From: Priapulus caudatus
Lineage: Eukaryota
Assembly: GCF_000485595.1 (NCBI RefSeq)
Contig: NW_014577070.1
Coordinates: 854,526 to 918,525, forward strand
Length of the DNA stretch: 64,000 bases
Direction of reading: 5' to 3'
Within the stretch, counting starts at the first letter, position 1. Every line of letters begins with the position of its first letter. This document shows positions 781 to 53,000 of the stretch, one piece after another. The notes beneath the pieces are model-generated. The model saw only the letters and a program-made list of their open reading frames with translations, made no database searches and was not told the origin of the DNA. The translations under genes and the position numbers were made by a program.

Positions 781-3700
781 GTTTGTTTTGCTACATATTG
801 TTATGCAGTGTTACACATAATATTTGCTAAATATTTTATTGTAAATGTGAGCCTAATGATGAAAATAGCTTTGAATGAAACCATAAGTCCTCCAGATTAT
901 GTCTTGAACAGTTCATTGTAAAACGCAATTCACGTCATATTCTTGCACAAATATTGATCTGCTTAATTTTCTTCTATAGAAGTCCCGGTTGAGGAAGTCG
1001 AAGAGGCACCAGAGGAGGAGGCTCCTGAGGAGATCACACTTGAGGTTGTTCAACTGGAAGAAGAGCAACCAGAAGGTAATCCCTGTTGGTTTCCTGGCCT
1101 AATTGAGGGGCATGATCATTTCATTGCAGCTGATTGATTTGTTTCAATAGCTAATTGTTTCAAAACATCAATTTTGAAAAGAGACATCTTTATGAGCGCA
1201 GCCATCATTGTACAGTTATTTCATGCATGCACTAGCTCAGATATGCATATGGTATCTGAAGCTTGCACGTGTTCGTGAATTTTCTTCTGGTCACTGATGG
1301 AAATACATTTCCTATAACAGAAGTAATAGTTGAGTCGAAGGTCACTAAAAAGCGACGCAAAAAGAAGAAACCAAAAGAGCGCACTGAGGAGGAATTGCAG
1401 CTTGAGGTGGTAGAGCCTGTCGAAGAAGAACAGGAAACAGTTGAAGAAGAGTTCATTACACAAGAAGTCATTGAACTCACCGCGGAGGAAGAGATCACGG
1501 AAGACATTGTTGTTGAAATTGTTGAGGAAGTGACTCCAGAAGGGATTGAAGAGGTTGAGATCACCAGAGTTGTGAAAAAGAAAAGGAAGAAGCCTAAGAA
1601 ACCCAAAGGTTTGTGGCAGATGTTAATACATACTGCCACAAAATGTATTAACATTGGGCCTGGGCTGATGTTGCGAACGTTTTGCATTGATATAAGTTCC
1701 TCTTTCCACATACCTGTTTCTTCTCAAGTAGCTCCATGTATACGGGATAATTTTTGTTTTGCTCTTAATAAAATGTGAGTGTACATATTTGTCACCTTCA
1801 GAAGTCCCAGTTGAGGAGGTGGAAGAGGTACCAGAAGAGGAGGCTCCTGAGGAGATCACACTGGAGGTTGTTCAACTGGAAGAGGAGAAACTAGAAGGTA
1901 ATCACTAGTTCGTTATTGTAATTGTAACCAAGAATACTATTTAATAAGAAACAAGTTTCAATGCTGCAGAGGTTATTGTACAGGTATTTCAGACATGTTT
2001 ATGCTTAGATATTCTGCTTGAGTTGCATTAGTGATGAATGTTTTTACATTCATGCTGATGTAGCTTGATGTTGCTGATATCTGAAGCTCATACATATGTC
2101 TGAAGTGTGATCTGTCCACTGACTGAAACATGTTTCTTAATTCAGAAGTGATAGTTGAGTCGAAGGTTACTAAAAAGAGGCGTAAAAAGAAGAAGCCCAA
2201 AGATCTCACTGAAGAAGAAATACAACTAGAGATGGTTCAACCTGTCGAAGAAGTGGAAGAGACTGTCGAAGAAGAGTTTGTCACTCAAGAGGTTATTGAG
2301 CTCAAGCCGGAGGAAGAAATCACCGAGGAAATAGTCGTTGAAATAGTTGAAGAAGAGACTCCAGAAGGAATTGAAGAGGTTGAGATCACGAGGGTTGTCA
2401 AGAAGAAGACCAAGAAGACAAAGAAGCCTAAGGTTGAAATTCCTGTTGAGGAAGTTGTGGAAGTCCCAGTTGAAGAAGCTCCTGAGGAAGTCATTCTTGA
2501 GATTGTAGAAGAGGTTCCTGAGGAGGCAGTCGAAGGTAGCATTAAGCAGGCTAATAACATTTTTGAATTTCTTCCACACATTCTTGCATGCAATTGCTAG
2601 TAGTAGTCATATCAATGTGTCTGCAGATGAAATCTATAAACTTTTGTATTTTATAATGATAATTTTCGTCTTTTCTGGAAGAAATGTGAAGAAATTTACA
2701 ATGTTGCATCAGTCCTGCAAGCAGTCTAGTTGGAGTGAGCTAAGCATAGCAGTCCTCATAGTTTTGAATTATTAATATATTTTTGCATTTAAATCTTTCT
2801 GATTTTGTTTTGATTTTTGCATAGGCAATGTGGAATTATACTAAAATTGTCATCTTTTTTTGCAAAAGCGATTTTGGTAGAGACGGATTGCTCATTTTTC
2901 GCTGAATGTTATAAGCAATTGCTGACCTGATCCAGGGATTGTTTTATTATCAGTTATTGAAAAGAAGAAGAAGAAGAAAAAGCCAAAGAAACCTGAAGGT
3001 TTGTGGCAGATGTTGATACATACTGCCACATTATGTATTAACATTCTCGATGTGTATATTATTTGCCTATTGTAGATAGGTTCTATATTTATATAACGGT
3101 GTGTTGTTATATAAGGCATTATCTTTCATGAGGTCATTTCAGGAGGCATGTATTTTCCATTACTCATACTTATTCTCAAATGTTTTCTATAGAAGTCCCG
3201 GTTGAGGAGGTTGAAGAGGCACCAGAGGAGGAGGCTCCTGAGGAGATCACACTTGAGGTTGTTCAACTGGAAGAGGAGAAACTAGAAGGTAATCACTGTT
3301 GGTTTTTTGGCCTGATTGAGGGGCAAGATCTTTTCATTGCAGCTGATTGAATTGTTTTAATAGGCAATTGTTTCAAAACGTCAATTTTGAAAAGAGACAT
3401 CTTTATGAGCGCAGCCATCATTGTACAGTTATTTCATGCATGCACTAGCTCAGATATGCATATGGTATCTGAAGCTTGCACGTGTTCGTGAATTTTCTTC
3501 TGGTCACTGATGGAAATACATTTCCTATAACAGACAGTAATAGTTATCGAAGTACACTAAAAAGCGACGCAAAAAGTAAGAAGAACCAAAAGAAGCAATG
3601 AGGGAATTGCAGCTTGAGGTGGTAGACCCTGTCGAAGAAGGAATCAGGAACAGTTGAAGAAGAGTTCATTAGCACAAGAGTCATTGAAGCTCACGCGCGG

Positions 3701-6700
3701 GAAGGAAGAGATCAGGCGGAAGATCATTGTTGTTGAAATTGTTGAGGAAGTGACTCCAGAAGGGATTGATAGAGTTGAGATCACCAGAGTTGTGAAAAAG
3801 AAAAGGAAGACGCCTAAGAATACCGCAAAGGTTTGTGGTAGATGGTTAAACATAGCTGCGCCACGAAATGTATTACACATTGGGCCTGGGCCTGAGTTGC
3901 AGAACGTTTTGCATTGATTTAAAAGTCCTCTTCCACATACTCTGTTTCTTCATAGGTAGCTCCATGTATAGGGATAATTTTTGTTTGCTCTTAAAATTAA
4001 ATGTGAGTGTACATATTTGTCACTTTCAGAAGTCCCAGTTGAGGAGGTGGAAGAGGTACCAGAAGAGGAGGCTCCTGGGAGATCACACTGCGTTGTTCAA
4101 CTGGAAGAGAGAAGCTAGAAGGTAATCACTAAGTTCGTTATTGTGAATATGGTAACTCAAGAATACTAATTTAATCAAGAAACAAGTTTCAAAGTGCTGG
4201 CAGAGGTTATTGTACACAGGTGTCTTCAGACATGTATATGGCTTAGATATTCTGCTGAGTTGCATTAGTGATGGAGTGTTTTTACATTCATGCTTGATGT
4301 AGCTTGATGTTACTGAGTATCTGAATGCTCATCCACATGTCTGAAGTGAGATCGTCCACATGACTGAAACTATGTTTCCTTAATTCAGAATGAGTAGTTG
4401 AGTCGAAAGGTTACTCAAAATAGAGGTCGTAAAAAGAAGAAGCCCAAAGATCTCAGCTGAAGAAGAAATACAACTAGAGACTGGTTCAAACCTGTCAAAA
4501 GTGGATAGGACTGTTGAAGAAGAGTTTGTAACACAAAGAGGTTATTGAGCTCAAGCCGAGAAGAAATCACGAGGAAATAGTTGTTGAAATAGTGTGAAGA
4601 CGAGACTCCAGCAAGGACTTGAAGAGCGTTGACGATCAACGAGGGTTGTCGAAGAAGAAGACCAAGAAACAAGAGCCTAAGGTTCTGAAATTCCTGTTGG
4701 AGGAAGTTGTGGAATGCCAGTTGAAGAAGCTCCTTAAGAGGTCACTATTCGATCTCGTGAAAGATCACCAAAGAGGCAGTATGAAGGTAGCACGATGCAG
4801 GGCCACTAGTATCCCTGCCAGGTTATTCCGCCACGCCGACAATATATATAACATGAGTAAACTCCATTCCTTATTGTACAGCTCACCTTGTATAATTATT
4901 AGAACAATATTATGATAAGTGACATTAAATGTATTTGTAATCTCAAATCAAATGCAGAGTTTTAATTGTATTAAATGTTGGACTAGTAATTGTGTTTATC
5001 TGTCAACTTAATATAAGTAAGATACGCTTTGGTAGTAATGTTTGCACATATTGTGCTGTTGAAGTTTATTGCGGCAGGTACTTCTGACAGTGTAAGTGCT
5101 TCGATATTTCTCTCAAGTTGCTTAGCATGAATGTATAAGAATGCATGGCTGGATGTGGCGTGACGTTGCTTGTATCTTGAACTGCATACATGATGTCTGA
5201 AGTGTGATGTCCACTGACTGAAAACATGTTTCTGTAATTCATGAAGTGATAGGTTTGAATCGGAAAGTTAAAAAAGAGGCGGTAAAAAGAAGAACGCTCC
5301 AAAGATCTCGCTGAGAAGAAATACAACTAGAGCATGGTTCAACTTGGAAGAAGTAGAATGAGAACTGTCGAAGAAGAGTTCGTCACTCCAAGAGATTATT
5401 GAGGCTCAAGCCAGAGGAGAGAAATCACTAGGAAATAGTCCGTTGAAATAGTTGAAGCACGAGACTCTCAGAAGGAAATTGAAAGGTTGAGATCACGAGG
5501 TGTCAAGGAAGAAGACAAGAAGACAAAGAAGGCCTAAGGGTGTAGATTCCTGTGTGATAAGAAGTTGTGGAAGTGCCGGTGAAGAAAACTGCCCTGAGGA
5601 GGTCATTCTTGAGAATTGTAGAAGAGGTTCCTGAGAGGAAGCGAGAGTACCGAAGTCGCATTAAGCCAGGCTTACTAACAGTTTTGAAACCCTTTTTCCA
5701 CACATTCTTGCATGGCAATTGTTAGTAGTAGTCATATCAAGTGTCTCAGATGAAATGCTATAAACTTTGTATTTTATACCTGATAATCTTTGTCGCTTCT
5801 GAAGAAATTGAAGAATTTAACAATGTTGCATCAGTCTGCAAGCAGTCCTAGTTGGATCAGCTAAGAAGCATTCGCAGTGCCTCATAGTTTTGAAATTATT
5901 AATATAGTTTTTGCATTTAAATCTTTCGAATTTTGTTTTAATTTTTGCATAACAATGTGGAATTATACTAAAATTGTCATCTTTTTTTGCAAAAGCGATT
6001 TTGGTTATCATAGGACATTTTCGTACCAAAACGTGTCAGTGCAACTAGAGACGGATTGCTCATTTTTCGCTGAATGTTATAAGCAATTGCTGACCTGATC
6101 CAGGGATTGTTTTATTATTAGGTTATTGAAAAGAAAGAAGCAGAAAAAGCCAAAGAAACCTGAATGGGTTTGTGGCAGATGTTGATACATACTGCCACAT
6201 TATGTTATTGAACATTCTCGATGTGTATATGTATTTACCTATTGTAATGAGGTTCGTATATTTTTACTAACGGTGTGTTGGTATATAAGGCAATTATTTC
6301 ATGAGTCATTTCAGGAGGCATGTATTGTCCATAGCTCATACTTATTCTCAATGTCTTCTATAGAAGTCCCGTTGAGAGAGGTGAAGAAGGCACCAGAGGA
6401 GGAGGCTCCTGAGGAGGATCACACTTGAGGTTGTTCAGACTGAAGAAGAGCACCAGAAAGTAATCAGTCACTTAGTTGGTTCCTGGCCTTAATGAGGGGC
6501 GTAGAATCTTTTCATTGCAGCTGATTGAATTGTTTTAATAGGCAATTGTTTCAAAACGTCATTTTGAAAAGAGACATCTTTAGAGCGCAGCCATCATTGT
6601 AACAGTATTTCATGGCATGCACATAGCATGAGATGATGCANGAGACTCCAGAAGGAATTGAAGAGGTTGAGATCACGAGGGTTGTCAAGAAGAAGACCAA

Positions 6701-9700
6701 GAAGACAAAGAAGCCTAAGGTTGAAATTCCTGTTGAGGAAGTTGTGGAAATGCCAGTTGAAGAAGCTCCTGAAGAGGTCACTATTGATCTCGTGGAAGAG
6801 ATCACCAAAGAGGCAGTTGAAGGTAGCACGATGCAGGCCACTAGTATCCCTGCCATTATTCCACGCCACAACTAATATAACATGATAAACTCCATTCCTT
6901 ATTGTACAGGCTCACTGTGTATAATTATGTAGAACAATATTATGATAAGTGACATTAAATTGTATTTTGTATCTCAAATCAAATGAGAGTTTAATGTATT
7001 AAATGTTGGAAGTAATTGTGTTATACTGTCAACTTAATATAAGTACAGATACGCTTTGTATATGTTTGCACATATGTGCTGTTGAAGTTATTGCACAGGT
7101 ACTTCAGACATGTATATGCTTAGATATTCTGCTCAAGTTGCATTAGCAATGAATGTATATGAATTCATGCTGATGTGGCTTGACGTTGCTGGTATCTGAA
7201 GCTCATACATGTGTCTGAAGTGTGATCTGTCCACTGACTGAAACATGTTTCTTAATTCAGAAGTGATAGTCGAATCGAAAGTTACTAAAAAGAGGCGTAA
7301 AAAGAAGAAGCCCAAAGATCTCACTGAAGAAGAAATACAACTAGAGATGGTTCAACTTGTGGAAGAAGTAGAAGAGACTGTCGAAGAAGAGTTCGTCACT
7401 CAAGAGATTATTGAGCTCAAGCCAGAGGAAGAAATCACTGAGGAAATAGTCATTGAAATAGTTGAAGAAGAGACTCCAGAAGGAATTGAAGAGGTGGAGA
7501 TTACGAGGGTTGTCAAGAAGAAAGGCAAGAAGAAGAAGCCTAAAGTTGAAATCCCTGTTGAGGAATTTGTGGAAATGCCAGTTGAAGAAGCTCCTGAAGA
7601 GGTCACTATTGATGTCGTGGAAGAGATCACCGAAGAGGCAGTCGAAGGTAGCACGATGCAGGCCACTAGTATATCTGCCATTATTCCACGCCGCAGCAAA
7701 TATAACATAATACACCCCATTCCTTATTGTAATGGCTCACTGTGTATATGTAGGGAAATATTATGAGAAATGACATTAAATTGTTAATTTAGTATCTCAA
7801 ATCAAATGAGAGTATACTGTTTTAAATGTTGGGAGTAATTATGTTATACGTCAACTTCATTTAAATGCAGATACGCTATGTATTTATATATTTAAATGAT
7901 GCCGCCGTGTGGTGTGGAATATTAGCTCACTATTATGGGAGTTTTGTCATTTATTACTGAAATTGTTTCAATGCTTACTTTATCACCAGTCAATGAAAAG
8001 AAGAATAAAAGGAAAAAGGCAAATGTTGATACATAATGCCACACGATGTATTAACATTCTTGCCATGTAAAACAGTAGCCATGAAAACGAAAGTTTCAGT
8101 GCAGTGCAATTTTGTGCTGCCATGTTTTAACTATATTCGTAGATGGTTTGCACCCGTCTCATTATAATTGCTATCTACTCAGTGCACGCATATTCATTTA
8201 TCTTTTTCAGAAATCCCCGTCGAGGAGGTGGAAGAGGTTCCTGAAGAGGAGATTCCTGAGGAGATCACACTTGAGGTTGTTCAACTGGAAGAAGAGATAC
8301 CTGAAGGTAATTTATTGGTAGCTCCCACTCATGCTAACTATAAACTATGAACCTTCACAGAGAGAAACATATTTCAGTGCTGTTGAAGTTATTGCACAGG
8401 TACTTCAGACATGTATGCTTAGTATTCTGCTCAAGTTGCATTAGCAATGAATGTATATGAATTCATGCTGATGTGGCTTGACGTTGCTGGTATCTGAAGC
8501 TCATCCATGTGTCTGAAGTGTGATCTGTCCACTGACTGAAACATGTTTCTTAATTCAGAAGTGATAGTTGAGTCGAAGGTTATAAAGGGACGTAAAAAGA
8601 GAGCCAAAGATATCACGGAAGAAGAAATACAAACTAGAGATCGTTCAACCTGTCGAAGAAGTGGAAAGAGACTGTCGAAGAAGAATTTTTCACTCAAAGA
8701 GGTTATTGAGCTTAAGCGGAGGAAAATCACGCGGAAATAGTCGTTGAAATAGTTGAAGAGAGGACTCCAGAAGGAATTGAAGAGGTGGAGATCACGAGGG
8801 TTGTTAAGAAGAAAGGCAAGAAGAAGAAGAAGCCTAAAGTTGAAATCCCTGTTGAGGAAGTTGTGGAAATGCCAGTTGAGGAAGCTCCTGAAGAGGTCAC
8901 TATTGATGTCGTGGAAGAGATCACCGAAGAGGCAGTCGAAGGTAGCACGATGCAGGCCACTGGTATCTCTGTCATTATTCCACGCCACAGCAAATATAAC
9001 ATAATAAACTCCATTCCTTATTGTAATGGCTCACTGTGTATATGTAGGGAAATATTATGATAAATGACATTAAATTGTAAATTTAGTATCTCAAATCAAA
9101 TGAGAGTTTAATGTGTTAAATGTTGGTAATTATCTTATACGTCAACTTAATACAAGTGCAGATACCCTTTGTATTTAAATATTTAAATGATGCCTCCGTG
9201 TGGTTGTGGAATATTAGCTCACTATTATGGGAGTTTTGTAAGTTATTACTGACATGCTTCAATGCTTATTTTATCGTCAGTCACTGAAAAGAAGAAGAAA
9301 AAGAAAAAGCCAAAGAAACCTGAAGGTTTGTGGCAAATGTTGATACATAATGCCACACCATGTATTAACATTCCGGCCATGTAAAATTGTAGCCATGAAA
9401 AAGAAAGTTTCAGAACAGTGCAATTTTGTGCTGCCATGTTTTAACTATATTCGTAGATGGTTTGCAACCGTCTCATTATAATTGCCATCTACTCAGTGCA
9501 CGCATATTCATTTATCTTCTTCAGAAATCCCCGTCGAGGAGGTGGAAGAGGTTCCTGAAGAGGAGATTCCTGAGGAGATCACACTTGAGATTGTTCAACT
9601 GGAAGAAGAGATACCTGAAGGTAATTTATCGCTAGTTCCCATTCATGCTAACTATACCTAGGAACCTTTCACAGAGAGAAACATATTCCAGTGCTGTTGA

Positions 9701-12700
9701 AGTTATTGCACAGGTACTTCAGACATGTATATGCTTAGATATTCTGCTCAAGTTGCATTAGTAATGAATGTTTTTGAATTCATGCTTATGTGGCTTGACG
9801 TTGCTGGTATCTGAAGCTCATACATGTGTCTGAAGTGTGATCTGTCCACTGACTGAAACATGTTTCTTAATTCAGAAGTGATAGTTGAGTCGAAGGTTAC
9901 TAAAAGGAGACGTAAAAAGAAGAAGCCCAAAGATCTCACCGAAGAAGAAATACAACTAGAGATCGTTCAACCTGTCGAAGAAGTGGAGGAGACTATTGAA
10001 GAAGAGTTCGTCACTCAAGAGATTATTGAGCTCAAGCCAGAGGAAGAAATCACTGAGGAAATAGTTGTTGAAATAGTTGAAGAAGAGACTCCAGAAGGAA
10101 TTGAAGAGGTGGAGATCACGAGGGTTGTCAAGAAGAAAGGCAAGAAAAAGAAGAAGCCTAAAGTTGAAATCCCTGTTGAGGAAGTTGTGGAAACGCTAGT
10201 TGAGGAAGCTCCTGAACAGGTCACTATTGATATCGTGGAAGAGATCACCGAAGAGGCAGTCGAAGGTAGCACGATGCAGGCCACTATTCAGCACTCTTAT
10301 TGTTATTTTTATTTCGTCTACTGTTATTCCAGACTAAAGAAAATAGAACATAATAATGCCATATTATGTCAAACGTTATTGATTCTTAATTGATATCGCA
10401 TACTTCCACATAATCGCATGGTTATATTTGAATCCAAATATCTGTCCCTCCTCTTTTCATTTGAATAACGTTTGTAAGATCCAGGCGATGAAGTGTCTGA
10501 AGATGTTACTCTTGAATTTGTATAAGCAGTAACAGAAAATGCTATATTAAATGAGATTACACTTCATCGCTTCCTAATTGATATTGCATACCTGGTTATA
10601 ATTACATCTAAATATCTCTCTCTCTCTCTTTTATTTGAAGAACGTTTGGAACTTCCAGACCAGGAAGTGTTTGAGGATGTTACTCTTGAGATTGTACTTT
10701 TAACAGATTGTTTATGTTAATTTCAGTAACAGAAGATGTGGTTGAAATTACTGAGAAGAAAAAGAAGAAGAAAAAGAAGGAGAGAGGTTAGTAATTTAAT
10801 GCTGAATATATATATCTGTAAAAGCCTTTTTCGTTCTAATGTTTTAATTAAGTTCCACAGATGTCATATTTTCTAAGTTTGACTAGAATGTAGCAAAGGT
10901 AATAAGAGAACATTCAGTATATCATACACAATGCCTGCACTGATTTGTATAGATATTTAAAACATTTTACTTTTCTTTTTGACAGCTCCTAAAGTGCCAG
11001 AAGAGGTAAGCATCTTTTTTGACTAGTGTAAAGGTAATTGTGGAAGCATTTTTATTTATGCAATGAGATTGTCTGTGTAGTAGGATTATCTTCTGTAGGA
11101 TATAATGTATAGTAATATTGTGTTATATTTACATGAACTCTGAGGTTTTAAGTGAGGGCAGTTAGATTTCACATTTTCACAATTTCTTTCTAGGTTGTAT
11201 CTCCTGAGGCACCTGCTTTGACTCCTATGCCTGATTTGACACTCGTCGAAGGTGAAGTGGCTTGCTTCACAACATTTGTAAGTTATTATGTTAGTCATGT
11301 AATATGGAATAGTGCCCTATTGTGGAAATTGCATCCAAGTAAATAAACATCATGTTAGCTGGTAGGAGTATTCACGTGTACCCTGTTGAATATGTACAAA
11401 AACTAGTATTGAATAATAATCATCATTTGAGCGGTCATATAATTCACTTATGCTGCTAATAATAACAACATGCTCTGTAAGCTGATGATCATAAGATGCA
11501 CGTAGTCATGGGTAAGATTCTGGCCAATTTTGGTCATAATAGTGAGTTGTATGGAGAGGCTATACAGAACAAGTGTTTTCTGTGATCTGATATCACATAG
11601 CTTAGCAGCAGAAACCAACAGACAGTACAGCACAGTGTTGTACATTAGAGCTATGTGATAAAGATTCAAGCATATTCCTGGACAATCATTTCTCACAGGA
11701 AGGAAGCACTTTTCCTGCAATACTCTCTAACCGTTTTCTTTCTGGAGTAGTGGTATACTGGGAGGTGACACTATTATGGGATACTGAGGTGTAGCGTCTA
11801 GCGTGACACTACACAAGTGTGAGGGGGAAAGGTAGGAGAATAACCACGGGAGTAAATAACCAAAGGAGAAGAGCAAAAGTAGAGGGTACGATGTAGCTTT
11901 ATTGACTCGTAACGCCGAACGTCGATTCACACTGGCACGTGACTTCTCTCGGACTCTGTCTTGGGGTTCTGCCGTGAGCGCAGAAACCGTATTTTTACTT
12001 CCTTCATCGGCCTTGACACTTCGCGCGCTCACCGTCTGTTTCTTTGTTTTTCTGGCTGGATGTTACCGCATCCGTTGTGCATAAGACATTATGTATGGTG
12101 TCCTGCATACAATGGCCTAATATTGGTCGCTACATGTGATTGTATATTGAAAGGGGAACCAGCAGCATCTTTCTGTGAACATTAAGTCGAGCTATTCAAA
12201 CTAATGTAATCTGTATGTTTTTTTTTATTTGCCATAGGTTACTGGCTATCCGATTCCAACAATCACCTGGGGTGTTGAACATGTAGAACTCACAGACTCT
12301 CCCGACTTTGAAATAACTTTTGAAGACAACGTGGCAGAACTGGTGATCACCCACGTCTACACAGATGACCAGGGCTCCTATTGGTGTAGAGCAGAAAATG
12401 AATATGGAGAAGACTCAGTTGCTGCCATGCTATTCGTGCCAAGTACGTAGCACAATTCTGTTGTGTATTCAGTGTATTTAAAAAACCGTTTGAACAAATC
12501 TCAATTCATCCTTAATCTTGATTAGGCCAAAGTTGATAGCCACGAAATCAAGAATTCACTGAAAACTTAAAAAGCCTTGTAGATTACGTGAACAAATTAT
12601 TTGTCTAAGTGAATGTGTGCGTGGGCATGTACATCTGTGTTCTATTAAATTGTCAATGTGGGTCTCGTTTTTATGGTGGATACAGTCCATTAAAGGTGAG

Positions 12701-15700: not shown

Positions 15701-18700
15701 TTGCAAGGCATCAGGCACAGATATTAGGGGAAAGAGTATTTATTATACAGAATATGTAACGTATATGCAGGGATGTCCACGTATGCCTTTGATTTCATGC
15801 AGTCGTAAAAGCAAAAAAATCAGTACTTAGTAATCAAAAGTATTAGTTATTTTCATGACAAACTTAGGGCAATCTTTTCGTTGCAACGTGTGTTGCAACA
15901 TGCTCACATGAATTGCATCAATAAAGGTTGGGATGCGTAGGACAGTTATAAAAGGCAATGGAAATATATCAATTTAAATAGATAAGCAGTGTAAAATTAG
16001 GATATAAACAACAGTTTATATTTATATGATTACCAACACAAACAATTGATAGTAAAGTGGCTGAATTGCTGAGTGGAACCAAGGTAAACGATTTATAGTT
16101 TCCAATGAGCCACGATAATACTCATTAGGGATGTAAGATTGAAGGTAGGTGCAACTGAAACATTTGTGCATGCCCGCAGTCGTAAATAATACTCTTTAGC
16201 AACTGGTTCATTAGTCAGCCATGATGTCTCATTGGAGCATTGTCACTGTGCATGACATGCAAGGTGACAATTACATGAGACATGTCTGGCAGCTATGAAC
16301 TTGGAAGTAATTGCTCAAAGAGTGTTCTATTTACAGAAATAGAAANAAGGCTACTATGTCCTTTACTGGTAAAATTTTACAGGTCGGGGGATGTTTTGCC
16401 AGAGTATATATCAACTTGTCAATTGCTTTTTACTACTACAATTTGCATTTCGGTATAGTTGTCACTTCATCCCATTGATGAACTGGCTGGAAACCAGTAT
16501 ATCCACCGAGTTTCTAACAATACGCTTGCAGAACCAGAGAAGCTGTTGCCAATTTAAATAGATCGGCAGTTCAAAATTAAAAAAAATAATTGAACGTATT
16601 CATCATGGGAAATATGATAAGACATAATTAAGCAAAACAAATTACAGCTAGTACTAGTTGATTAGGAGAGTTGCCCCAGTGGTAAGGGAGTTAAATTTTC
16701 CAATAGAAAAATATAAGTCTCTTCTGCCCCCACTGCAACATTGGCACAGTAGCGTATAAATGAAATGTTCGCCTCCTGCGCCGCAGTTGTAGATAAACTC
16801 CTTAGCAACTTGGTTCAGTAGCCCTGGCCATGATATCTGCATTGGAGTGTTGTCACTGCTGCATGAATGCACAGGTGACAATTAGATGGATATGTCTTGC
16901 AAGCCTCATGACATGGGAAGTGATTGCTCAAAAGAGTGTTGCTATTTACAGAAGCCAGAAATCACACGTGTAGAAAAGAAGAAAAAGAGAGAAGAAACGA
17001 CAGCCAGGTACAAGAAGTTGTAGAAGGAACTTCCTCAACCCGAGGAAACACTGAAGAGCGTGGTTCTTGGGCAGGTTAAACCAGTTGAAGAGCGTACCAG
17101 AAGACGTCCTGAAGTGACTGAAGAAATAACTAAGAAATCATAATAAGTAACAGAAGAGGCAAACAGCTTCCTGAGGTCACTGCAGGAAGTCACTGAGGAA
17201 TATCATCTCTGAACAAACAGTAAGAAGAGAAAACAGCTTCCAGAAGCGTACATATGTCCTTACTGTAAATTTTACAGGCGTTGGGAGTGTTTGTAGAGCT
17301 GATTATCACATGGCAAGGTTATTTAATACTACAATTTGCATTTGGCTATTCAGTTGTCACTATTCCGCATTGATGAACATGGCTGAAACATGTATAATTC
17401 ACCGAAGTTTCTAAAAACAGCTATAAGAACACAGAGAGCTTGTTGCAATTTAAATTAGATCGCGCAGCTTCAAAAATGAAAAAATAATGAACGTATTATC
17501 ATGGACATGCATTACTTTAAGGCAAACAAATTAGCTATACTATTGCAGTGCGACAGAGTTGCCAGTCTGTAGAGAGAGGTTAATATTTGTCCAACTGAAA
17601 CAATATAAGGTCTATTCTGCCACTGCAACATTGACGGTTATGGTATAAATGAAAATGTCTCGCTCATGCGCACGCGTTGCTAAGATAGTATACTCCTTTA
17701 CAGCAAAACTGGTTCATTAGCCTGCCATGATGTCTCATTTGGATGTTGGTCACTGTGCATGACACTGCAACCGGTTACAATTAGCATAAGATATGCTCTG
17801 GCAGTATGAACATGGAAGTGATTGCTCAAAGAATGTTCTATTTTACAGTAGCAAAGAATTCACACCTGTAGAAAAGTCAAGAAAAAGAGATGAAACCGAA
17901 GCCAGTAGAAGAACTTGCCTCACACCTGAGGAAACCACTTGAAAGAATTGTATGTTCTTGAGGTAAGCCAGTCGAAGAGCGCACCAGAAGGAGGTTCCTG
18001 AAGTGACTGAAGAAGACCATAACTGAAGAAAATTGTAATAGTAACAGAAGAGGAAACAGTTTACTGATGACGACGTATCACTGAGGAAGTAACTGCAACC
18101 AAATCATCTTTGAACAACCAACCGTTCAAGGAGCCGAACAACAGGTTCTGAAGTAGAATATGTCCTTACAGAAAAACATACGCATGCACTAGAATATTCT
18201 GAAATATATTATGCACATGAAAGAGCTCTTCACTACACGCTATGTGCAGCTGAGATATAATGTTTCACCTCTACTGCGCTGAATTGCCAAGTGTATATAT
18301 CAGGCATCATTAGAATAGGATAAAAACGAGGGAGCTTTATACAATTTAACTCGCTGTCGCGAAGTTTAACTGAGCATATAATAAACGGTTTAGTCTTACA
18401 CACAATCCTATTAATACCAAATAAATGAAACTCGAACTGACCGCTGTCAGCGCAGTGCTTGGCCCAAAGGTAAAATAACTACATTGTTTCAATTCAGCCT
18501 ATATAAGACTTCTTTAGTCAGTATGATCTGAAAGGCTATAGCAGTAGTGGAAACATTTCGTCCATTTGCCCTGCAGTCGATAAATAATACTCTTTAAAGC
18601 TGCCTGTTCATTAGTCTGCCATAATGTGCTCTCATTGGAGTCGTTGTCACTGTGCATGACATCAGGGCGGCTGACAATAGACATGAGATATGCTCTGCAG

Positions 18701-21700
18701 CTATGAACATGAAGTTGATTGCCTCAAAGGAGGTGTTCTATGTTACAGAAGCAGAAGATCACACGTGATAGCAAAAGAAGAAAAAGCAAGAGAAAACCCG
18801 AAAGCAGTAGAAAAGTTGGTAGAGAACTTCCTCAACCGAGGAAACTACCTGAAGAGTGCTGGTTCTTGAGGTTAAACCAGTTGAAGAGTAGCCGAGTCAG
18901 AGGTTCCTGAAGCGACTGAAGAAATAACTGGAAGGAAATCGCTAATCAATAACAGAAGAGGAAACAGTTCCTGCAGGCACTGAGGAACAGTCACTGAGGA
19001 AATCATCTGGAAACAACGAGTAGAAGCAGGAACAGGTTCAAGAAGGTAAACAATGTCCATTACTGTATGATTTTACAGCGTCGGGGATGTTTTTGTAGAG
19101 TATTATATACATGGAATTGTTTTTACACTACAATTTGCATGTTGGTATAGTTGTCACTTTCCAGTTGCATTTGAAACTGGGCTGAAACAGTATAAATTCA
19201 CAAGTTCCTAAAACAGCTATAGAACAGAGAGCTGTGTGCCAAATTAAATAGATCGGCAGTTCAAAATGATAAAAATAATGAACGTATTCAGTATGGACAT
19301 GATTTATTAAGGGCAAACAAATGATAAGCTATACTAGTGAGCTAGCGAGAGTTGCTCCAGCTCAGTGAAGAGAGGTAAATTTCCAATGAAACGAATATAA
19401 GTCTCTTCTGCCAGCTTGCACCGTCAACTGTTTGATGCGGTAGGGTATAAATGAAAGCGCTCCTGCCGGCAGTTGTAGATAAATACTCTTATAGCAACTG
19501 TGTTCATTAGGCCTGCCCATGCATGTCTCATTGCAGTGTTGTTAATGTGCATGACATGCCAAGCCGTGCACAATTAGCATGACGATTATGTCTGGCAGCT
19601 ATGAACATGGAAAGTGATTAGCCTCAAAGACGTGTTCTATTTACAGTAGCAGAAATCACACCTGCTTTAGAAAAGAAGAAAAAGCAAGAAGAAACCGAGC
19701 AGTAGAAGACTTCCTCAACCTGAGGAAATCACTTGAAGATGTTGTCTTGAGTGTTAAGCCAGTCGAAAGACCGGCTACCAGAAAGAGGTCCTGTAGTGAA
19801 CGAAAAATAACTGCAAGAAATGTAATAGTAACCAAAGAGGAAAACGTTACTTGGAGGTACTGCAGGCAAGTAACTGCAGCAAATTCATCTTTGACAACCA
19901 CATAGAGGAGGAACAGGCTTCCGTGAAGGTAGGAAATGTCCTAACTGAAAATTATTACATGACTGGTAATCTGAAATACATTATAACATGGAAAGAGCTT
20001 TCACTAACATGATGTGCAGCTGATACAATTTTCACCTTATTACTGCGGCTGAATTGCCAACGTGTATATATCAGGATCATAGAATAGCGTATAAAACGAG
20101 GGAGCTTTATCAATTTAACTCGTTCGCGACAGCTTTTAAAACTGAGCGACTATAAATACGTGTTTATTCTTTCACAATTATTAATACAAATTAAATATGG
20201 AAACTGAACTGACCGTGTAGGAGTGTTGCCCAAAGGTAAATAATAGCCAGTTTCCAAATCAGCCTATATAAGACTCTTTAGTGATTCGTAGGATTGAAGG
20301 TAGTAGGTATAGCCTGCGAAACATTGTGTCCATGGCCCTGCCAGTCATACAATAATTACTCTTTAGACAGCTGGTTCATTATTTCTTGCGCATGATTAGG
20401 TCTCATGTGGAGTGGTTGATCACGTGTGCATGAACATGCAAGGTGTACAATTACATGAAGACATTTCTGGCAGCTATGAACAGTTGGAAGCCGACTTGCC
20501 TCAAAGAGTGTATCTATTTACAGAAAGAGAAATGTACACCGCCTGTTGGAAAAAGAAGAAAAAGAAGAAGAAACGAAGCCAGTACAGGAAGTCTGTAGGA
20601 AGAACTTCCAGCACCAGAGGAAACCACTGAAGGGTTCCTTTTGAGCTTAAACCAGTTGAAGAGGTACCGAAGAGGTCCTGAACGTGACTGAAGAAATAAC
20701 TGAAGGAATCATAATAATAACAGAAGAGCGAAACAGTCTCCGAGGTGCACTGAGGAACGTCACTGAGGAAATCATCTTTTGCAACAACCAGTAGAAGAGG
20801 AACAGGTTCCAGAAGGCTACATTATGCTCCTTTACTGCCTAAAATTTTACAGCGTTGGGATGCTTTTGTAGAGTATTATCACATCGGCCAAGTGTTTTTA
20901 CCCCTACAATTTGCATTTTGGTATTAGTTGTCACTTTCCCTGAGGAACGGCTGAAACAGTATAGATTCACGAGGCTTCTAAAAACAAGCTAGGGAAGAAC
21001 CAGAGAGCTGTTGCAATTTAAATAGATCGGCAGTTTCAAAAAATGAAAAAATAATGAACGTATTCATATGAATATGATTATTAAGGCAAACAAATTAAGC
21101 TATACTAGTTGAGTAGGAGAGTTGCCCCAGTGTAAGGGAGTTAAATTTTCCAATGAAACAATATAAGTCTCTTCTGCACTGCAACATTGACGGTAGGTAT
21201 AAATGAAATGTTTGCTCCTGCGGCAGTTGTAGATAATACTCTTTAGCAACTGGTTCATTAGCCTGCCATGATGCCTCATTGGAGTGTTGTCACTGTGCAT
21301 GACATGCAAGGTGACAATTACATGAGACATTTCTGGCAGCTATGAACGTGGAAGTGATTGCTCAAAGAGTGTTCTATTTACAGTAGCAGAAATCACACGT
21401 GTAGAAAAGAAGAAAAAGAAGAAGAAACCGAAGCCAGTAGTAGAAGTTGTAGAAGAACTTTCTCAACCTGAGGAAACCACTGAAGATGTTGTTCTTGAGG
21501 TTAAGCCAGTCAAAGAGATACCAGAAGAGGTTCTTGAAGTGACTGAAGAAATAACCGAAGAAATTGTAATAGTAACAGAAGAGGAAACAGTTACTGAGGT
21601 TACTGAGGAAGTAACTGAGCAAATCATCTTCGAACAACCAATAGAAGAGGAACAGTTTCCTGAAGGTAGAAATGTCCTTACAGAAAAACATTACATATGA

Positions 21701-24700
21701 CTAGTATTCTGAAATATATTTTGACATGGAAAGAACTTTCACTAACGCTATGTGCAGCTGATATAATTTTCACCTTTACTGCACTGAATTGCAAGTGTAT
21801 ATATCAGGATTCATAGTATAGGTATAAAAACGAGGGAGCTTTATAAATTTAACTTGTTCGGAAGTTTAAACTGAGGATATAATAAACATGTTTATCTTTA
21901 CACAATTATTAATACAAATAAATAAAATTGAACTGACCGTGTAGGAGTGTTGCCCGAACGTAAGATAATAGCAGTTTCCAATCAGCCTATATAAGACTCT
22001 TTAGTGATGTAGGATTGAAGGTAGGTATAGCTGGAACATTTGTCCATGCCCTGCAGTCATAAATAATACTCTTTAGAAGCTGGTTCATTAGTCTGCCATG
22101 ATGTCTCATTGGAGTGTTGTCACTGTGCATGACATGCAAGGTGACAATTACATGAGACATGTCTGTCAGCTATGAACGTGGAAGTGATTGCTCAAAGAGT
22201 GTTCTATTTACAGAAGCAGAAATCACACCTGTAGAAAAGAAGAAAAAGAAGAAGAAACCGAAGCCAGTAGAAGAAGTTGTAGAAGAACTTCCTCAACCCG
22301 AGGAAACCACTGAAGAGGTGGTTCTTGAGGTTAAACCAGTTGAAGAGGTACCAGAAGAGGTTCCTGAAGTGACTGAAGAAATAACTGAAGAAATCGTAAT
22401 AATAACAGAAGAGGAAACAGTTCCTGAGGTCACTGAGGAAGTCACTGAGGAAATCATCTTTGAACAACCAGTAGAAGAGGAACAGGTTCCAGAAGGTACA
22501 TATGTCCTTACTGTGCAATTTTACAGCGTCTGTGTGTTTTGCAGAGTATTATCACATGGCAATTGTTTTTACTACTACAATTTGCATTTGGTATAGTTGT
22601 CACTTTCCCATTGATGAACTGGCTGAGACAGTATAATTCACGAGTTCTAAAACAGCTATAAGAACCAGAGAACTGTTGCAATTTAAATAGATCAGCAGTT
22701 CAAAATGAGAAAATAATGAACGTGTTCATATGGATATCATTATTAAGACAAACAAATACTATACTAGTTTAGTGGGAGAGTTGCTCCATGGTAAGGGAGT
22801 TAAATTTTCCAATGAGACAATATAAGTCTTCTGCACTGCAACATTGACGGTAGGTATAAATGAAATGTTCGCTCCTGCGGCAGTCGTAAATTATACACTT
22901 TAGCAGCTGGTTCATTAGTCTGCCATGATGTCTCATTGGAGCGTTGTCACTGTGCATGACATGCAAGGTGACAATTACATGAGACATTTCTGGCAGCTAT
23001 GAACGTGGAAGTGATTGCTCAAAGAGTGTTCTATTTACAGAAATAGAAATCACACCTGTAGAAAAGAAGAAAAAGAAGAAGAAACCGAAGCCAGTAGAAG
23101 AAGTTGTAGAAGAACTTCCTCAACCTGAAGAAACCACTGAAGAGGTTGTTCTTGAAGTTAAACCAGTTGAAGAGGTTCCCGAAGTGACTGAAGAAATAAC
23201 TGAAGAAATTGTAATAGTAACAGAAGAGGAAGTAGTTACTGAGGTCACTGAGGAAGTAACTGAGGAAATCATCTTCGAACAACCAGTAGAAGAGGAACAG
23301 GTTCCAGAAGGTAGATGTTTCCTTACTGAAAAATATTACATGACTGGTAATCTGAAATATATTATGACATGGAAAGAGCTTTCACTAACACGATGTGCAG
23401 GTGATATAATTTTCACTGTTACTGCACTGAATTGCAAGTGTATATTTTACGATTCATAGAACAGGTATAAAAAGCAAGGGAGCTTTATCAATTTAACTGG
23501 ATCAGCAGTTTAAAATGAGGATATAATAAACGTGTTTATATTTACACAATTGTTAATATAAACAAATGAAACTCAACTGACCGTGTAGGAGTGTTGCCCC
23601 AATGTAAGATAAGAGCAGTTTCCAATGAGCATATATAAGACTCATTAGTGGCGTAGGATTGAAGGTAGGTATTACTGGAACATTTGTGCATGTTCTGCAG
23701 TAGTAAATAATACTCTTTAGCAGCTGGTTCATTAGTCTGCCATGATGTCTCATTGGAGTGTTGTCACTGTGCATGACATGCAAGCTGACAATTATATGAG
23801 ACATATCTGGCAGGTATGAACTTGGAAGTGATTGCTCAAAGAGTGTTCTATTTACAGAAATAGAAATCACACCTGTAGAAAAGAAGAAAAAGAAGAAGAA
23901 ACCGAAGCCAGTAGAAGAAGTTGTAGAAGAACTTCCTCAACCTGAGGAAACCACTGAAGAGGTGGTTCTTGAGGTTAAACCAGTTGAAGAGGTACCAGAA
24001 GAGGTTCCTGAAGTGACTGAAGAAATAACTGAAGAAATCGTAATAATAACAGAAGAGGAAACAGTTCGTGAGGTCACTGAGGAAGTCACTGAGGAAATCA
24101 TCTTTGAACAACCAGTAGAAGAGGAACAGGTTCCAGAAGGTACATATGTCCTTACTGTGAAATTTTACAGCGTCTGGGTGTTTTGCAGAGTATTATCACA
24201 TGGCAAATTTTTTTACTACTATTTGCATTTGGTGACAACTTTCCCATTGATGAACTGGCTGAAACAGTATAATTCACGAGTTCTAAAACAGCTATAAGAA
24301 CCAGAGAACTGTTGCAATTTAAATAGATCAGCAGTTCAAAATGAAAAAATAACGAACGTGTTCATATGGATATCATTATTAAGACAAACAAATACTATAC
24401 TAGTTTAGTGGGAGAGTTGCTCCATGGTAAGGGAGTTAAATTTTCCAATGAGACAATTTAAGTCTTCTGCACTGCAACATTGACGGTAGGTATAAATGAA
24501 ATGTTCGCTCCTGCGGCAGTCGTAAATAATACTCTTTAGCAGCTGGTTCATTAGTCTGCCATGATGTCTCATTGGAGCGTTGTCACTGTGCATGACATGC
24601 AAGGTGACAATTAATTACATGAGACATGTCTGGCAGCTATGAACATGGAAGTGCTTGCTCAAAGAGTGTTCTATTTACAGAAATAGAAATCACACGTGTA

Positions 24701-50000: not shown

Positions 50001-53000
50001 GGCAATTTAAAACCTGCAATTTTGCTATACAATATTCAACATAACAGCTAGCTGCATCAAACGCCTATGGATTTCCCATGTTTAATTAATTTAAGTGTAT
50101 GATGTTTATGTTATGTTGATTGTCTAATTCATGGCAGATCAGGTGCTAACCTTATATAGGTATTTGCTTTGCACAAATGCTATGTGTTAAAACACGGGTA
50201 ATGTTAAATAACCGTACTGAACTATGACTTGACATTCGCAACCATTTGCATTAACATTATTCTTCCTGCAATAACTGAACAGCAATACCTGCCAACTATA
50301 GCTAATAACCTGCCAGTCTTATAACAACGACTAAAATAGTCAATTAATTCCATGTGCTTTTAACTATTCAACTTAACATCTTGATTTTATAAATGGTTAT
50401 ATACATACTTACACAACTATGCATGATGCACATCACATTATATTTTTTAAAGAGAATGACCAAGTTTAATGACTTACAACTTAACCATGTTGCTGAGGCA
50501 TGGGTTGGAGACGTATTGCGACACGGGAAAGTACCGCAACTAACGATACTAATTTATAAATGCTAATTGTCGCATCAAGCTGAATGGATGTTGTTTCAAT
50601 ACAGTCGCCGAGGAGATCACGGTTGAAGCTGTTACACCGGCTGAGGTTGGATTAGAAGTACCACATGATGGGGAGGTAAAGGAGGTCGACGTGCAAATAG
50701 AAGCTATTGCGCCCATAGAAGTGAGCCTTGACCTCGAACAGGAGCAGGAAATCAAGCAAGTGGAGTTGGAAATTCAACCAGTATCACCTTCCGTGGCTGC
50801 GCTTGATATTCCCACAGAAGAAACCAAGGAAGTGGCTGTAGCCATGTCAATGGAAACCTCTACAGGAACGCCTGGTTGAACTTGCATCTGCCTGGTTGAA
50901 CTTGCATCTCCACTTCCTTAGTTTCTTGTCCCTGTAGAAGTTTTCGTTGATGTTACTACAGAGGAAACCAAGGAAGCAGAGATGGTAATTCAACCACATG
51001 TCCCTGGTGAGGTCGGCTTAGAAATCCCAGTAGAGACAACGGTGGAAGAAGTTACGATGGATGTACCAAAGCCAGAACTTACTGAAGAATTGACTGTTGA
51101 TCTTCCAGCTGATATTGAAGTTGTTGAAATTGCCGAGGAGGATGTTGTAATGGAGGTTGCAGACGTTCCTGCAGTATCACCTGATACAGCTGAAGAAGAA
51201 GTCATGCTAGATATTCGCTCAAAACCAACAGAAGAGGTTACTGAAGTATCAGAAGAAATGGCCAGCACAATCGTTCTCCCAACCAAGCCAGAAGAAGCTT
51301 CCGAAGAAATTGCAGATGCCGCTGAAGCAGTTGAAGTCATTGTTAAAACGAAGGATGACGTCCAGGAAGAAATTGAAGAGGTGTCCGAGGAGCTTGTTAT
51401 TACTCCAAAACCAACGACTGTCGTTGAAGAGATTGATGAGGAGGTTACCCTTAAGAAGGACGAGGTCACAGGTATGGTATTGTGTATTCACTGGATTTTT
51501 TCACTTAAGTACGTACTGATGGAAATTCGATAGAGCTATCACCCTCGCCAGCTGATCATGGTCACCAACCATTATTGTTGTAATGTGTATAGTTGGTTTT
51601 ATGGGACTGTGATATTATAACTTGTTTACTTATTTCTATTTTTACAAAGTCAATTGATAAAATTATTAAATAATCTTCTCATATGTGGGCTTCAACCCCC
51701 CCCCCCCTGATGTATGATGTAAGCTTTTTGTCATGTTTACACTTCTTTGCCATTTACGTATGGAAAACAAAGGATGTGTTTACCTTCTAAGGACTAATCA
51801 TGTTCACCACTTATTACTTGGCTTGTTTCTAATGGGCTATGTCAGTAGCTGGACATTACAACTTACTTCATTGCGTTTGTTTAAAACGCAAATCCGCAAA
51901 ATAATGACATAATATGCTGAGGGTTGTGCCGTTCTGTTGCACGATTAATAGAGGGTTGAACCAGTGATTGCGCTATATAACTCAACATAACACTTAGTCT
52001 TTGCTTTGCTCATCGCAACTGAGCTCAATGCGTATAATTACTATATTGATCTAATTAGTTAGTTTACAATATCATAACCTTCAAGGTACATGTTTTGCAC
52101 AAGCGCTGTGTTTCACTATGGACTCGAATGCACGCTAATCAGACATTCATGGATATGTGCCTTAATAATATTATTTAGAGATTCCATATAGAAAAATAGA
52201 TGGCAGTGATGTATGCTTGTCATATTTACTATGTACACTAAACCCGATTTATTTATTATGAATTTTAGTTGTTAAATTTAACACATTTTGTTTACGTATA
52301 TATTTACTCACTCAACGATAATGGCATGGTGAGAGGCCATTTAAACCGAAGTGCCACAAGACCATTCCCAAGTAGCCTGAGTTGTTTTCGCCTGTGTTGA
52401 TTTGCCAAGACCAGAATTAATGACTTAAAGTTTAACCCTGATGCCAAGGCATGGTTTGGAGGTCTAATGCCACTTGGAAAGGAACGCAATTATTAATACT
52501 AATGCATTCATGCTAATAATTTACCAAGCTGAAAGGTTGTTATTTCAATGCAGTTGCTGAGGATGTCACTCTTGAACCTGGTGAGCTTGAATTAAATGTA
52601 CCGTTTGATGGAGAGATAAAGGAAGTCGAATTAAAGATAGACGCTGTTACTCCTGCGGAGGTGAGCCTTGACCTTGGACATGAGGGCGAAATCAAGCAAA
52701 TGGCTTTAGAAATTCACCCAGCTTCACCTTCAGTGGTTGCCATTGATATAACCACAGACGAAACTAAGGAAGTGGAGATGCAAATTCAACCAAGAGTCCC
52801 AGGCGAGGTTTCAATTGATTTAACTGTAGAAGAATTCAAGGAGGTGACGATGGAAGTAAAGCCACAAATGCCTGTAGAAGTTTCCTTTGATATTACTACA
52901 AAGGAAAGCAGGGAAGTTGAGATGCAAGTTCAACCAACAGTGCCGATGGACGTTTCTATTGATTTATCTACAGAAGAATTCAAGGAGGTGGAGATGGAAG

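What the first reader, a model, noticed from the sequence alone, without database searches (positions are those of the whole stretch)
1945..9867. A second long hairpin (~190 nt) covers the acceptor tract of array A 390-type exons, with substitutions biased to G-U-compatible changes
Seen at 1945-2139, 8363-8550, 9677-9867 (inner part also ~7087-7239): agaaaca/tgtttct (the pyrimidine tract), tttca/tgaaa, acag/ctgt, cttcagac/gtctgaag, atgtat/atacat, agatat/gtatct, tcaagttgcattagc/gctgatgtggcttga, atgaat/attcat. Most stem differences between the 2.0-kb and 7.1-kb copies swap Watson-Crick and G-U pairs (tcaag/ttgag, tagc/tagt, gtgg/gtag, ggtatct/gatatct, actt/attt). This is expected for selection on sense-strand RNA rather than a DNA palindrome. 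It is not obviously alignable to the array B hairpin, yet has the same position and logic. The inner ~52-nt stem-loop is pre-miRNA sized.
Basis: partly seen in the sequence, partly recalled or inferred. Interest (0 to 1): 0.8.

Follow-up and report, generated by a model that had tools for sequence, protein, structure and literature searches.

The report
Intron hairpin guards titin spring exon
In an invertebrate titin-like muscle gene, a repeated and mostly skipped exon is preceded by a 190-base inverted repeat that is rich in G-U rather than A-C mismatches, so it likely folds as RNA over the predicted branch point and likely dampens that exon's inclusion, which would help set the length of the protein's spring.

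Summary
The hairpin is real: six copies lie before 390-type exons of a titin/connectin-like gene (clean copies z -5.4 to -7.5). In a strand-neutral arm alignment G-U outnumbers A-C 16:4 (p 0.006-0.05), and local mutation bias does not explain it. RNA reads show the intron is spliced and the exon mostly skipped (junction inclusion 19 of 85 and 3 of 15). DNA depth argues against a dispersed MITE. Corrections: the stem over the pyrimidine tract is the least constrained part (all 3 transitions there are A-C type; the 7.1-kb copy lacks it); no pair among the four clean copies changes on both sides; the antisense strand also folds above chance. An older paralog at 1202-1300 lacks the inner loop; its retained pairs do not beat neutral decay. 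The inner 61 nt has pre-miRNA geometry with two of four motifs, but variable seeds. Best reading (0.5): a selected pre-mRNA structure over the branch point that lowers inclusion. That the hairpin causes the skipping is untested.

The parts
1945..2139 (+). Hairpin A1, full length, 79 predicted pairs; ends 6 nt before the exon
2016..2076 (+). Inner 61-nt stem-loop of A1 with pre-miRNA-like geometry (UG at -14/-13, UGU at +24-26); absent from paralog A0
2119..2123 (+). Predicted branch-point motif CTGAC (A at 2122, -24), paired in the predicted fold; not mapped experimentally
   Evidence: sequence
1802..1897 (+). 96-nt upstream exon (phase 1-1)
2146..2535 (+). 390-nt cassette exon (poly-K and E-rich, phase 1-1); both included and skipped in RNA
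2954..2998 (+). 45-nt poly-K exon, the landing site when the 390 exon is skipped
4178..4381 (+). Hairpin A2, A1-type, in an error-rich segment; left out of the statistics
5075..5235 (+). Hairpin A3, A4-type, in an error-rich segment; left out of the statistics
7077..7252 (+). Hairpin A4, in a chimeric intron; lacks the outer left arm, pyrimidine tract predicted mostly open
7261..7647 (+). 387-nt exon of the 390 type
8363..8552 (+). Hairpin A5, full length (a 3-nt deficit and one mismatch may be assembly errors)
8559..8941 (+). 390-type exon with indels that look like assembly errors
9677..9869 (+). Hairpin A6, full length, weakened outer stem
9876..10265 (+). 390-nt exon, last of array A
1202..1300 (+). 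A0: older paralog of the hairpin before the 288-nt exon; arms 67% identical to A1, inner stem-loop missing, outer stem decayed
1321..1608 (+). 288-nt exon, paralog of the first 288 nt of the 390 exon (80% identical)
22055..22213 (+). One of the array B acceptor hairpins: same position, no detectable homology to A1/A6; comparison only

Best explanation
The element is an inverted repeat at the 3' end of the intron before a mostly skipped 390-nt exon of a titin-like gene, predicted to fold in the pre-mRNA into a stem of about 70-79 pairs that likely hides the predicted branch point (and, in full-length copies, the pyrimidine tract) and so likely lowers inclusion of that exon. Shown: the repeat, its position, the G-U excess, splicing at the expected sites, low inclusion, amplification with the exon array. 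Inferred: folding in vivo, the branch-point position, that folding causes skipping, and that skipping in-frame E/K-rich modules changes spring length or stiffness. It likely arose once by inverted duplication of the intron end and spread with the tandem unit. A helicase or RNA-binding protein (five UGCU motifs against 1.06 per 200 nt in other introns; muscleblind is a recalled candidate) could open or stabilise it.
For: G-U:A-C 11:1, 9:3, 9:1, 11:1 in A1, A6, A5, A4; union of A1, A4, A6 16:4 against an expected G-U share of 0.42 from 60 polarised transitions in paralogous introns or about 0.57 from intron composition. A1 against A6: hairpin 20 of 191 different, third codon positions 32 of 160 (p 0.015), 5' intron flank 16 of 48 (p 0.0004). 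Strong folds (z<=-4) at 4 of 4 A acceptors, 6 of 7 B acceptors, 1 of 49 others. Exon skipping and inclusion both seen; inclusion joints 19 against 66 skipping joints in X11, 3 against 12 in X10; depth-based inclusion 0.13-0.20 relative to the 96-nt exon. The 96-nt exons have no such acceptor fold (z +2.5 to -3.0) and are the most included. Array B shows 7 of 63 pairs changed on both sides. Acceptor masking by stems is established in Drosophila Atrophin (PMC2724269, passages) and cTNT exon 5 (PMC7404189, section 4.3).
Against: No two-sided change among the four clean A copies (0 of 79 pairs). The outer stem carries A-C type changes (3 of 3 transitions) and is missing in A4 and A0. The cost of opening -30..-3 is 12.4-15.6 kcal/mol for A1/A5/A6 but also 11.5 and 13.7 for two poly-K acceptors without the hairpin, so masking is not exceptional by this measure; the strongest stems lie upstream of the branch point. 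The 288 exon, with only the decayed A0 stem, is also poorly included (0.16 against 0.12 for the 390 exons and 0.56 for the 96 exons, X10/X9 depth). A0's retained pairs do not exceed neutral decay if most changes fell on the A0 line (P 0.18-0.31). The invariant last 49 nt may reflect splice signals or gene conversion.
Confidence: 0.5

Rival explanations
1. The functional part is the inner stem-loop, a pri-miRNA (or the whole stem a Dicer substrate for endogenous siRNAs), hosted in tens of copies in a muscle gene; its position next to the acceptor is incidental or secondary.
For: Inner 61 nt above an 11-13 bp lower stem gives about 35 bp; UG at -14/-13 and UGU at +24-26 in A1, A4 and A6 in the one register tried; motif names and the 35-bp stem from PMC10954719 (passages), exact positions recalled. 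A0, which lacks this part, fits neutral decay.
Against: No single-stranded basal flanks: the stem continues for about 40 more pairs. No CNNC at +16-18 and no mGHG by inspection (positions recalled). Both candidate seeds differ between copies; the inner part is not more conserved (8 of 61 A1-A6 differences). No Rfam match over any A copy at E<=1. Array B has a different geometry at the same position.
Confidence: 0.15
2. Neutral relic: an old inverted duplication or MITE landed at the intron end and was carried along and homogenised with the exon array; skipping has other causes.
For: Antisense z -3.8 to -5.2; no two-sided changes among A copies; A0 decays as neutral theory allows; A4-A6 are 97-98% alike, as are their neighbours.
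Against: G-U excess 16:4 against an expectation of 0.42-0.57; lower divergence than third positions and flank; genomic depth over the hairpin (137-187) does not exceed the adjacent exon (194-219), and the listed non-GATC loose end at its 5' edge is the array's own flank; unrelated hairpins at the same place in array B with two-sided changes.
Confidence: 0.15
3. The stem helps rather than hinders: folding 190 of about 250 nt brings the upstream donor near the acceptor, or removes cryptic sites, and partly rescues a weak, very purine-rich exon.
For: Only 47-56 nt of the intron lie before the stem (sequence); the strongest stems are upstream of the branch point and the distal stems are the variable ones; bridging by stems is described in PMC7404189 and PMC2724269 (passages).
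Against: Inclusion is low (about 0.2); the predicted branch A is paired in A1 and A0.
Confidence: 0.12
4. The duplex is a platform for ADAR or another dsRNA-binding protein, and editing or binding (for example of the branch-point A or UGCU sites) sets the splicing outcome.
For: Long imperfect duplex; ADAR binding to duplexes at pyrimidine tracts blocks U2AF65 (PMC7404189, section 4.3).
Against: None testable: intron depth in X11 is about 2; the few reads listed carry alleles also present in DNA.
Confidence: 0.08

Closest known systems
Acceptor-masking intronic stems in Drosophila (Atrophin, Nmnat; PMC2724269, passages seen)
   Same: Intronic pairing that covers or flanks an alternative acceptor and balances its use.
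   Different: Those are short boxes (9 nt or more) conserved across species and proven by rescue; most avoid the branch point and tract. Here a local hairpin of 70-79 pairs is repeated in an exon array and untested.
cTNT (TNNT2) exon 5 upstream stem-loop, MBNL1 against U2AF65 (PMC7404189, section 4.3 part 1 seen)
   Same: Muscle gene, stem at the 3' end of the intron before a cassette exon; UGCU motifs in the stem here.
   Different: This stem is far longer; no protein binding was tested; the tract-covering part is dispensable in some copies.
Vertebrate titin PEVK exon arrays (PMC6469411, passages seen)
   Same: Tandem in-frame spring exons whose alternative inclusion sets spring length.
   Different: Invertebrate E-rich/poly-K modules; that paper's main text has 0 occurrences of 'hairpin' or 'secondary structure'.
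Intronic pri-miRNAs and Drosophila hpRNAs (PMC10954719 passages; hpRNA papers as search listing only; myosin-intron miR-208/499 recalled)
   Same: About 35-bp inner stem with UG and UGU motifs; long G-U-rich imperfect duplex.
   Different: No free basal flanks, no CNNC or mGHG, variable seeds, no small-RNA evidence.
MITEs (recalled)
   Same: About 190 nt, non-coding, palindromic.
   Different: No dispersed copies by read depth, no common target-site duplication, G-U bias, right arm is the splice signal itself.

Membership tests
Splice-site-masking pre-mRNA stem | Pairing overlaps branch point or pyrimidine tract | tested here: met
   Predicted only: mean pairing probability -35..-18 is 0.75-0.86 in 4 of 4 copies; -17..-4 is 0.75-0.80 in A1/A5/A6 and 0.38 in A4
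Splice-site-masking pre-mRNA stem | Adjacent exon is alternatively spliced | tested here: met
   Inclusion and skipping forms in X5, X10, X11
Splice-site-masking pre-mRNA stem | Structure kept by selection on the sense strand | tested here: met
   G-U:A-C 16:4; by one-sided changes only, 0 of 79 two-sided
Splice-site-masking pre-mRNA stem | More stem gives less inclusion | tested here: inconclusive
   288 exon 0.16, 390 exons 0.12, 96 exons 0.56; DNA and RNA from different samples; A4-type junction not listed
Splice-site-masking pre-mRNA stem | Disruption and compensatory rescue change splicing | not testable with these tools
   needs a minigene
Canonical pri-miRNA | About 35-bp stem with apical loop, basal UG, apical UGU | tested here: met
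   motif positions recalled; one register tried
Canonical pri-miRNA | Single-stranded basal flanks; CNNC; mGHG | tested here: not met
   stem continues below the basal loop; motifs absent by inspection
Canonical pri-miRNA | Conserved seed or known family | tested here: not met
   seed positions differ among copies; no Rfam match over A copies
Canonical pri-miRNA | Discrete 21-23 nt duplex in small-RNA reads | not testable with these tools
   the RNA runs laid are 51-52 nt cDNA reads or contigs
Mirtron | Pre-miRNA-sized hairpin whose ends are the splice sites | tested here: not met
   190 nt, begins 47-56 nt after the donor; the inner stem-loop ends 69 nt before the exon
MITE | Dispersed copies in many flanks | tested here: not met
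   X9 depth over the hairpin no higher than over the exon; families under 82% identity would be missed; no genome held
MITE | Target-site duplication | tested here: inconclusive
   5' flanks of A1 and A5/A6 differ and no shared duplication is visible; age could have erased it
Dscam-type docking/selector system | One docking site pairing competitively with many selectors | not tested
   each unit folds on itself; pairing between copies was not modelled

The most novel reading that the evidence does not exclude
Two unrelated long hairpins arose independently at the acceptors of two spring-exon arrays of one titin-like gene and were amplified into tens of copies, forming an RNA-structure rheostat for spring length; in array A the nested pre-miRNA-shaped stem is cut by Microprocessor, coupling small-RNA output from tens of copies to the inclusion of the exon it guards.
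Probability: 0.1. Interest if true: 0.8.

Novelty: new variant of a known kind. Interest (0 to 1): 0.47.

Why it matters
Spring length in titin-family proteins is set by choosing among many near-identical in-frame exons. A structure copied with each exon offers a built-in way to set a default inclusion rate across a whole array without a separate code per exon. The natural series here (full A1/A5/A6, outer arm lost in A4, inner loop lost in A0, unrelated B hairpin) is a ready-made set for minigene tests. Four searches combining titin or duplicated exons with RNA-structure terms listed no paper on such hairpins in a titin-like gene, judged from listings only; subscription papers are not in the library.

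Tried and rejected
No genome is held for the window, so dispersal was judged from read depth only. The run search listed no holder on record as RNA; the raw RNA runs came in by species label. One protein search found nothing; the organism was not placed beyond animal. Rfam gave one weak match outside the A copies (mir-4524, E 0.42, 24 bits against 68), rejected. My first tests of pair retention (p 0.004-0.024) start from one extant copy and so count reversions as conservation; one search was also significant for the antisense strand; under the stricter decay model A0 is not significant, so I do not use them as support. A0 against B gave p 0.006-0.03 in 4 of 8 alignments, uncorrected and with mononucleotide shuffles; not taken as homology. 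An apparent under-use of A5-type exons in RNA (site 10006: 5 of 107 in X11 against 83 of 184 in X9) was dropped, because 51-nt A5-type reads there carry too many differences for the 90% filter and the samples differ. The A4-type junction (390 to 390) was not listed in any of 3 RNA runs; inconclusive, as those samples may lack that copy. X7 had thin coverage and its one piece reaching into A1 was identical. X12 had 2 reads. Editing could not be scored. A2 and A3 were left out of all counts as error-rich. Three look-ups of earlier findings returned nothing.
Full report
Host gene. The window is part of an animal titin/connectin-like gene on the + strand: five exons were scanned, four score as I-set immunoglobulin domains and the 390 exon as nothing in Pfam; the top PDB matches of one Ig exon are titin. 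Between Ig exons lie tandem arrays of E-rich, poly-K exons. Array A is built of 45-, 96-, 288- and 390(387)-nt exons, all phase 1-1 multiples of three, so any can be skipped in frame. About 3500-6640 is error-rich sequence ending at an N. The organism was not identified.

Observation. Six copies of the element were found: A1 1945-2139, A2 4178-4381, A3 about 5075-5235, A4 7077-7252, A5 8363-8552, A6 9677-9869. The clean four fold at -70 to -76 kcal/mol, z -5.4 to -7.5; their antisense strands fold 12-25 kcal/mol less well but still at z -3.8 to -5.2, against a window-wide strand difference of 3.8 +/- 8.6 (1574 windows). Of 60 hand-listed acceptors scanned (one more dropped for want of an AG; 20 shuffles each), 11 have z <= -4 in the last 200 nt: 4 of 4 A, 6 of 7 B, 1 of 49 others, none of 12 in array C.

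Is it selected as RNA? Aligning left arm to right arm with G-U and A-C scored alike gives G-U:A-C of 11:1, 9:3, 9:1 and 11:1 for A1, A6, A5, A4. Distinct appositions over A1, A4 and A6 are 16:4 (p 0.006 at 0.5, 0.026 at 0.565, 0.05 at 0.6); without the outer stem 16:1 (p <= 0.002; split chosen afterwards). Strand-biased mutation could mimic this, but intron composition predicts only about 0.57 (G/C 1.16, T/A 1.12) and 60 polarised transitions from 17 paralogous intron stretches, some noisy, predict 0.42. Among the 20 A1-A6 differences, in the A1 register, the transitions at paired sites 1987, 2019, 2020, 2046, 2062, 2077, 2096 and 1967 are all Watson-Crick/G-U swaps, whereas 1955, 1958 and 1961 in the outer stem are Watson-Crick/A-C; in the A6 register 1967 and 2096 score as A-C type instead, and 1971 and 1979 as G-U swaps. 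No pair changes on both sides among the four clean copies (0 of 79; 11 pairs vary on one side, 9 depart only by unpaired cells). The hairpin differs less between A1 and A6 (20 of 191) than third codon positions (32 of 160, p 0.015) or the 5' flank (16 of 48, p 0.0004); against four-fold sites alone (11 of 53) p is 0.06. Gene conversion near the exon could contribute. So selection on the sense strand is supported for the middle and inner stems and not for the stem over the pyrimidine tract, which A4 lacks altogether because its intron is a chimera.

Older paralog. The intron before the 288 exon aligns almost without gaps to both arms (67% identity) but lacks the inner 60 nt. Its own fold shares 23-27 of 37 pairs with A1/A6, z -2.5 on chosen bounds and -1.1 on wider ones. 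A permutation test gave p 0.005-0.015, but a decay model from a perfect palindrome reproduces the data if 0-20% of changes fell on the A1 line (P 0.18-0.31); equal rates are rejected (P 0.002); four two-sided kept pairs have P 0.02-0.18. Reading: the long form has been held, A0 may simply be decaying.

Splicing. Six of 14 listed runs were laid. The A1 intron is removed at GT..AG (2 reads in X10, 1 contig in X5). One X5 contig joins the 96 exon at 1897 straight to a K exon, another joins 2535 to a K exon: skipping and inclusion. On a single A6 unit as reference, the A5/A6-type 96-exon donor goes to the 390 exon in 19 reads and to another 96 exon in 66 (X11), 3 and 12 in X10; 16 further X11 reads join an A1-type 96 exon to a 390 exon (35 of 101 if added); joints to K exons were not countable and would lower inclusion. 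'Goes back' joints are read as jumps to the next unit; back-splicing cannot be excluded. Depth normalised by DNA gives 0.13-0.20 inclusion relative to the 96 exon, and in X10 0.16 for the 288 exon, 0.12 for the 390 exons, 0.56 for the 96 exons; DNA is Hi-C from another sample, so these are rough. Expression differs greatly among runs (2853, 383 and 2 reads). Intron depth is about 2, too low for editing.

Copy number and origin. In X9 the hairpin (137-187) is covered no deeper than the exon (194-219), about four times the 288 exon (48) and about 14 times a neighbouring intron (12). The real array is thus much larger than assembled, probably tens of units (inference), and no excess points to dispersed copies. 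The right arm is the intron's own branch and tract region, which fits one inverted duplication of the intron end (inference). The array B hairpin is not alignable to A1 or A6, sits at the same place, and has 7 of 63 pairs changed on both sides in at least one copy.

Mechanism. I favour a repressive structure over the branch point (0.5), by analogy with acceptor-masking stems in Drosophila (PMC2724269, passages) and the cTNT stem-loop (PMC7404189, passages and section 4.3 part 1). Against it, opening costs are not far above some hairpin-free acceptors and the 288 exon with a decayed stem is also mostly skipped. The inner 61 nt has pre-miRNA geometry with basal UG and apical UGU but lacks free flanks, CNNC, mGHG and a stable seed, so a small-RNA role stays at 0.15. 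A neutral relic (0.15), a splicing-promoting bridge (0.12) and an ADAR platform (0.08) are the other rivals.

Novelty. Structure-modulated acceptors are known; a 70-79 pair hairpin amplified with a titin-like spring exon, with an unrelated counterpart in the next array, was not found or 52 (listings only; supplements not read). It is a new variant of a known kind; causation is untested. Interest 0.47.

Noticed in passing
window 1609-1655, 2999-3045, 9326-9372 (also 3834, 6168 and about 8021 by eye): Right after the donors of the poly-K and 288 exons lies an a-b-a'-b' motif with two overlapping alternative stems, one touching the 5' splice site; z -3.6, -2.9, -3.1, the only 3 of 30 donors at z <= -2.9. 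K exons are also skipped.
   Followed up: partly
window 26305-26464 and about 25320-25460: A diverged array B hairpin supplies most two-sided changes; a partial copy of it lies just upstream of another B hairpin, where the minus strand folds best.
   Followed up: partly
window 63267-63466: Several short hairpins upstream of an Ig exon, z -5.0.
   Followed up: no
window about 50836-50920: Inverted piece of the 72-nt array C repeat inside an exon; a local inversion or an assembly artefact.
   Followed up: no
window 6823-7260 and about 4786-5240: Chimeric introns joining a 390-exon donor to the hairpin, dropping the K and 96 exons; seen in a clean and a noisy copy; the matching RNA joint was not listed.
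   Followed up: partly
window 3500-6641, about 16300-21200 and parts of array C: Error-rich, read-like segments with frameshifts; array A looks collapsed several-fold against X9 depth.
   Followed up: partly
window 22055-22213 and other B copies; 1224: TGCATG (Rbfox-type motif, recalled) sits at the apex of the B hairpin and in A0, against 0.09 per 200 nt in other introns.
   Followed up: no
window 2878: X9 reads carry a 40-nt insertion here that the noisy copy near 6005 also has: a variant absent from the clean copy.
   Followed up: no
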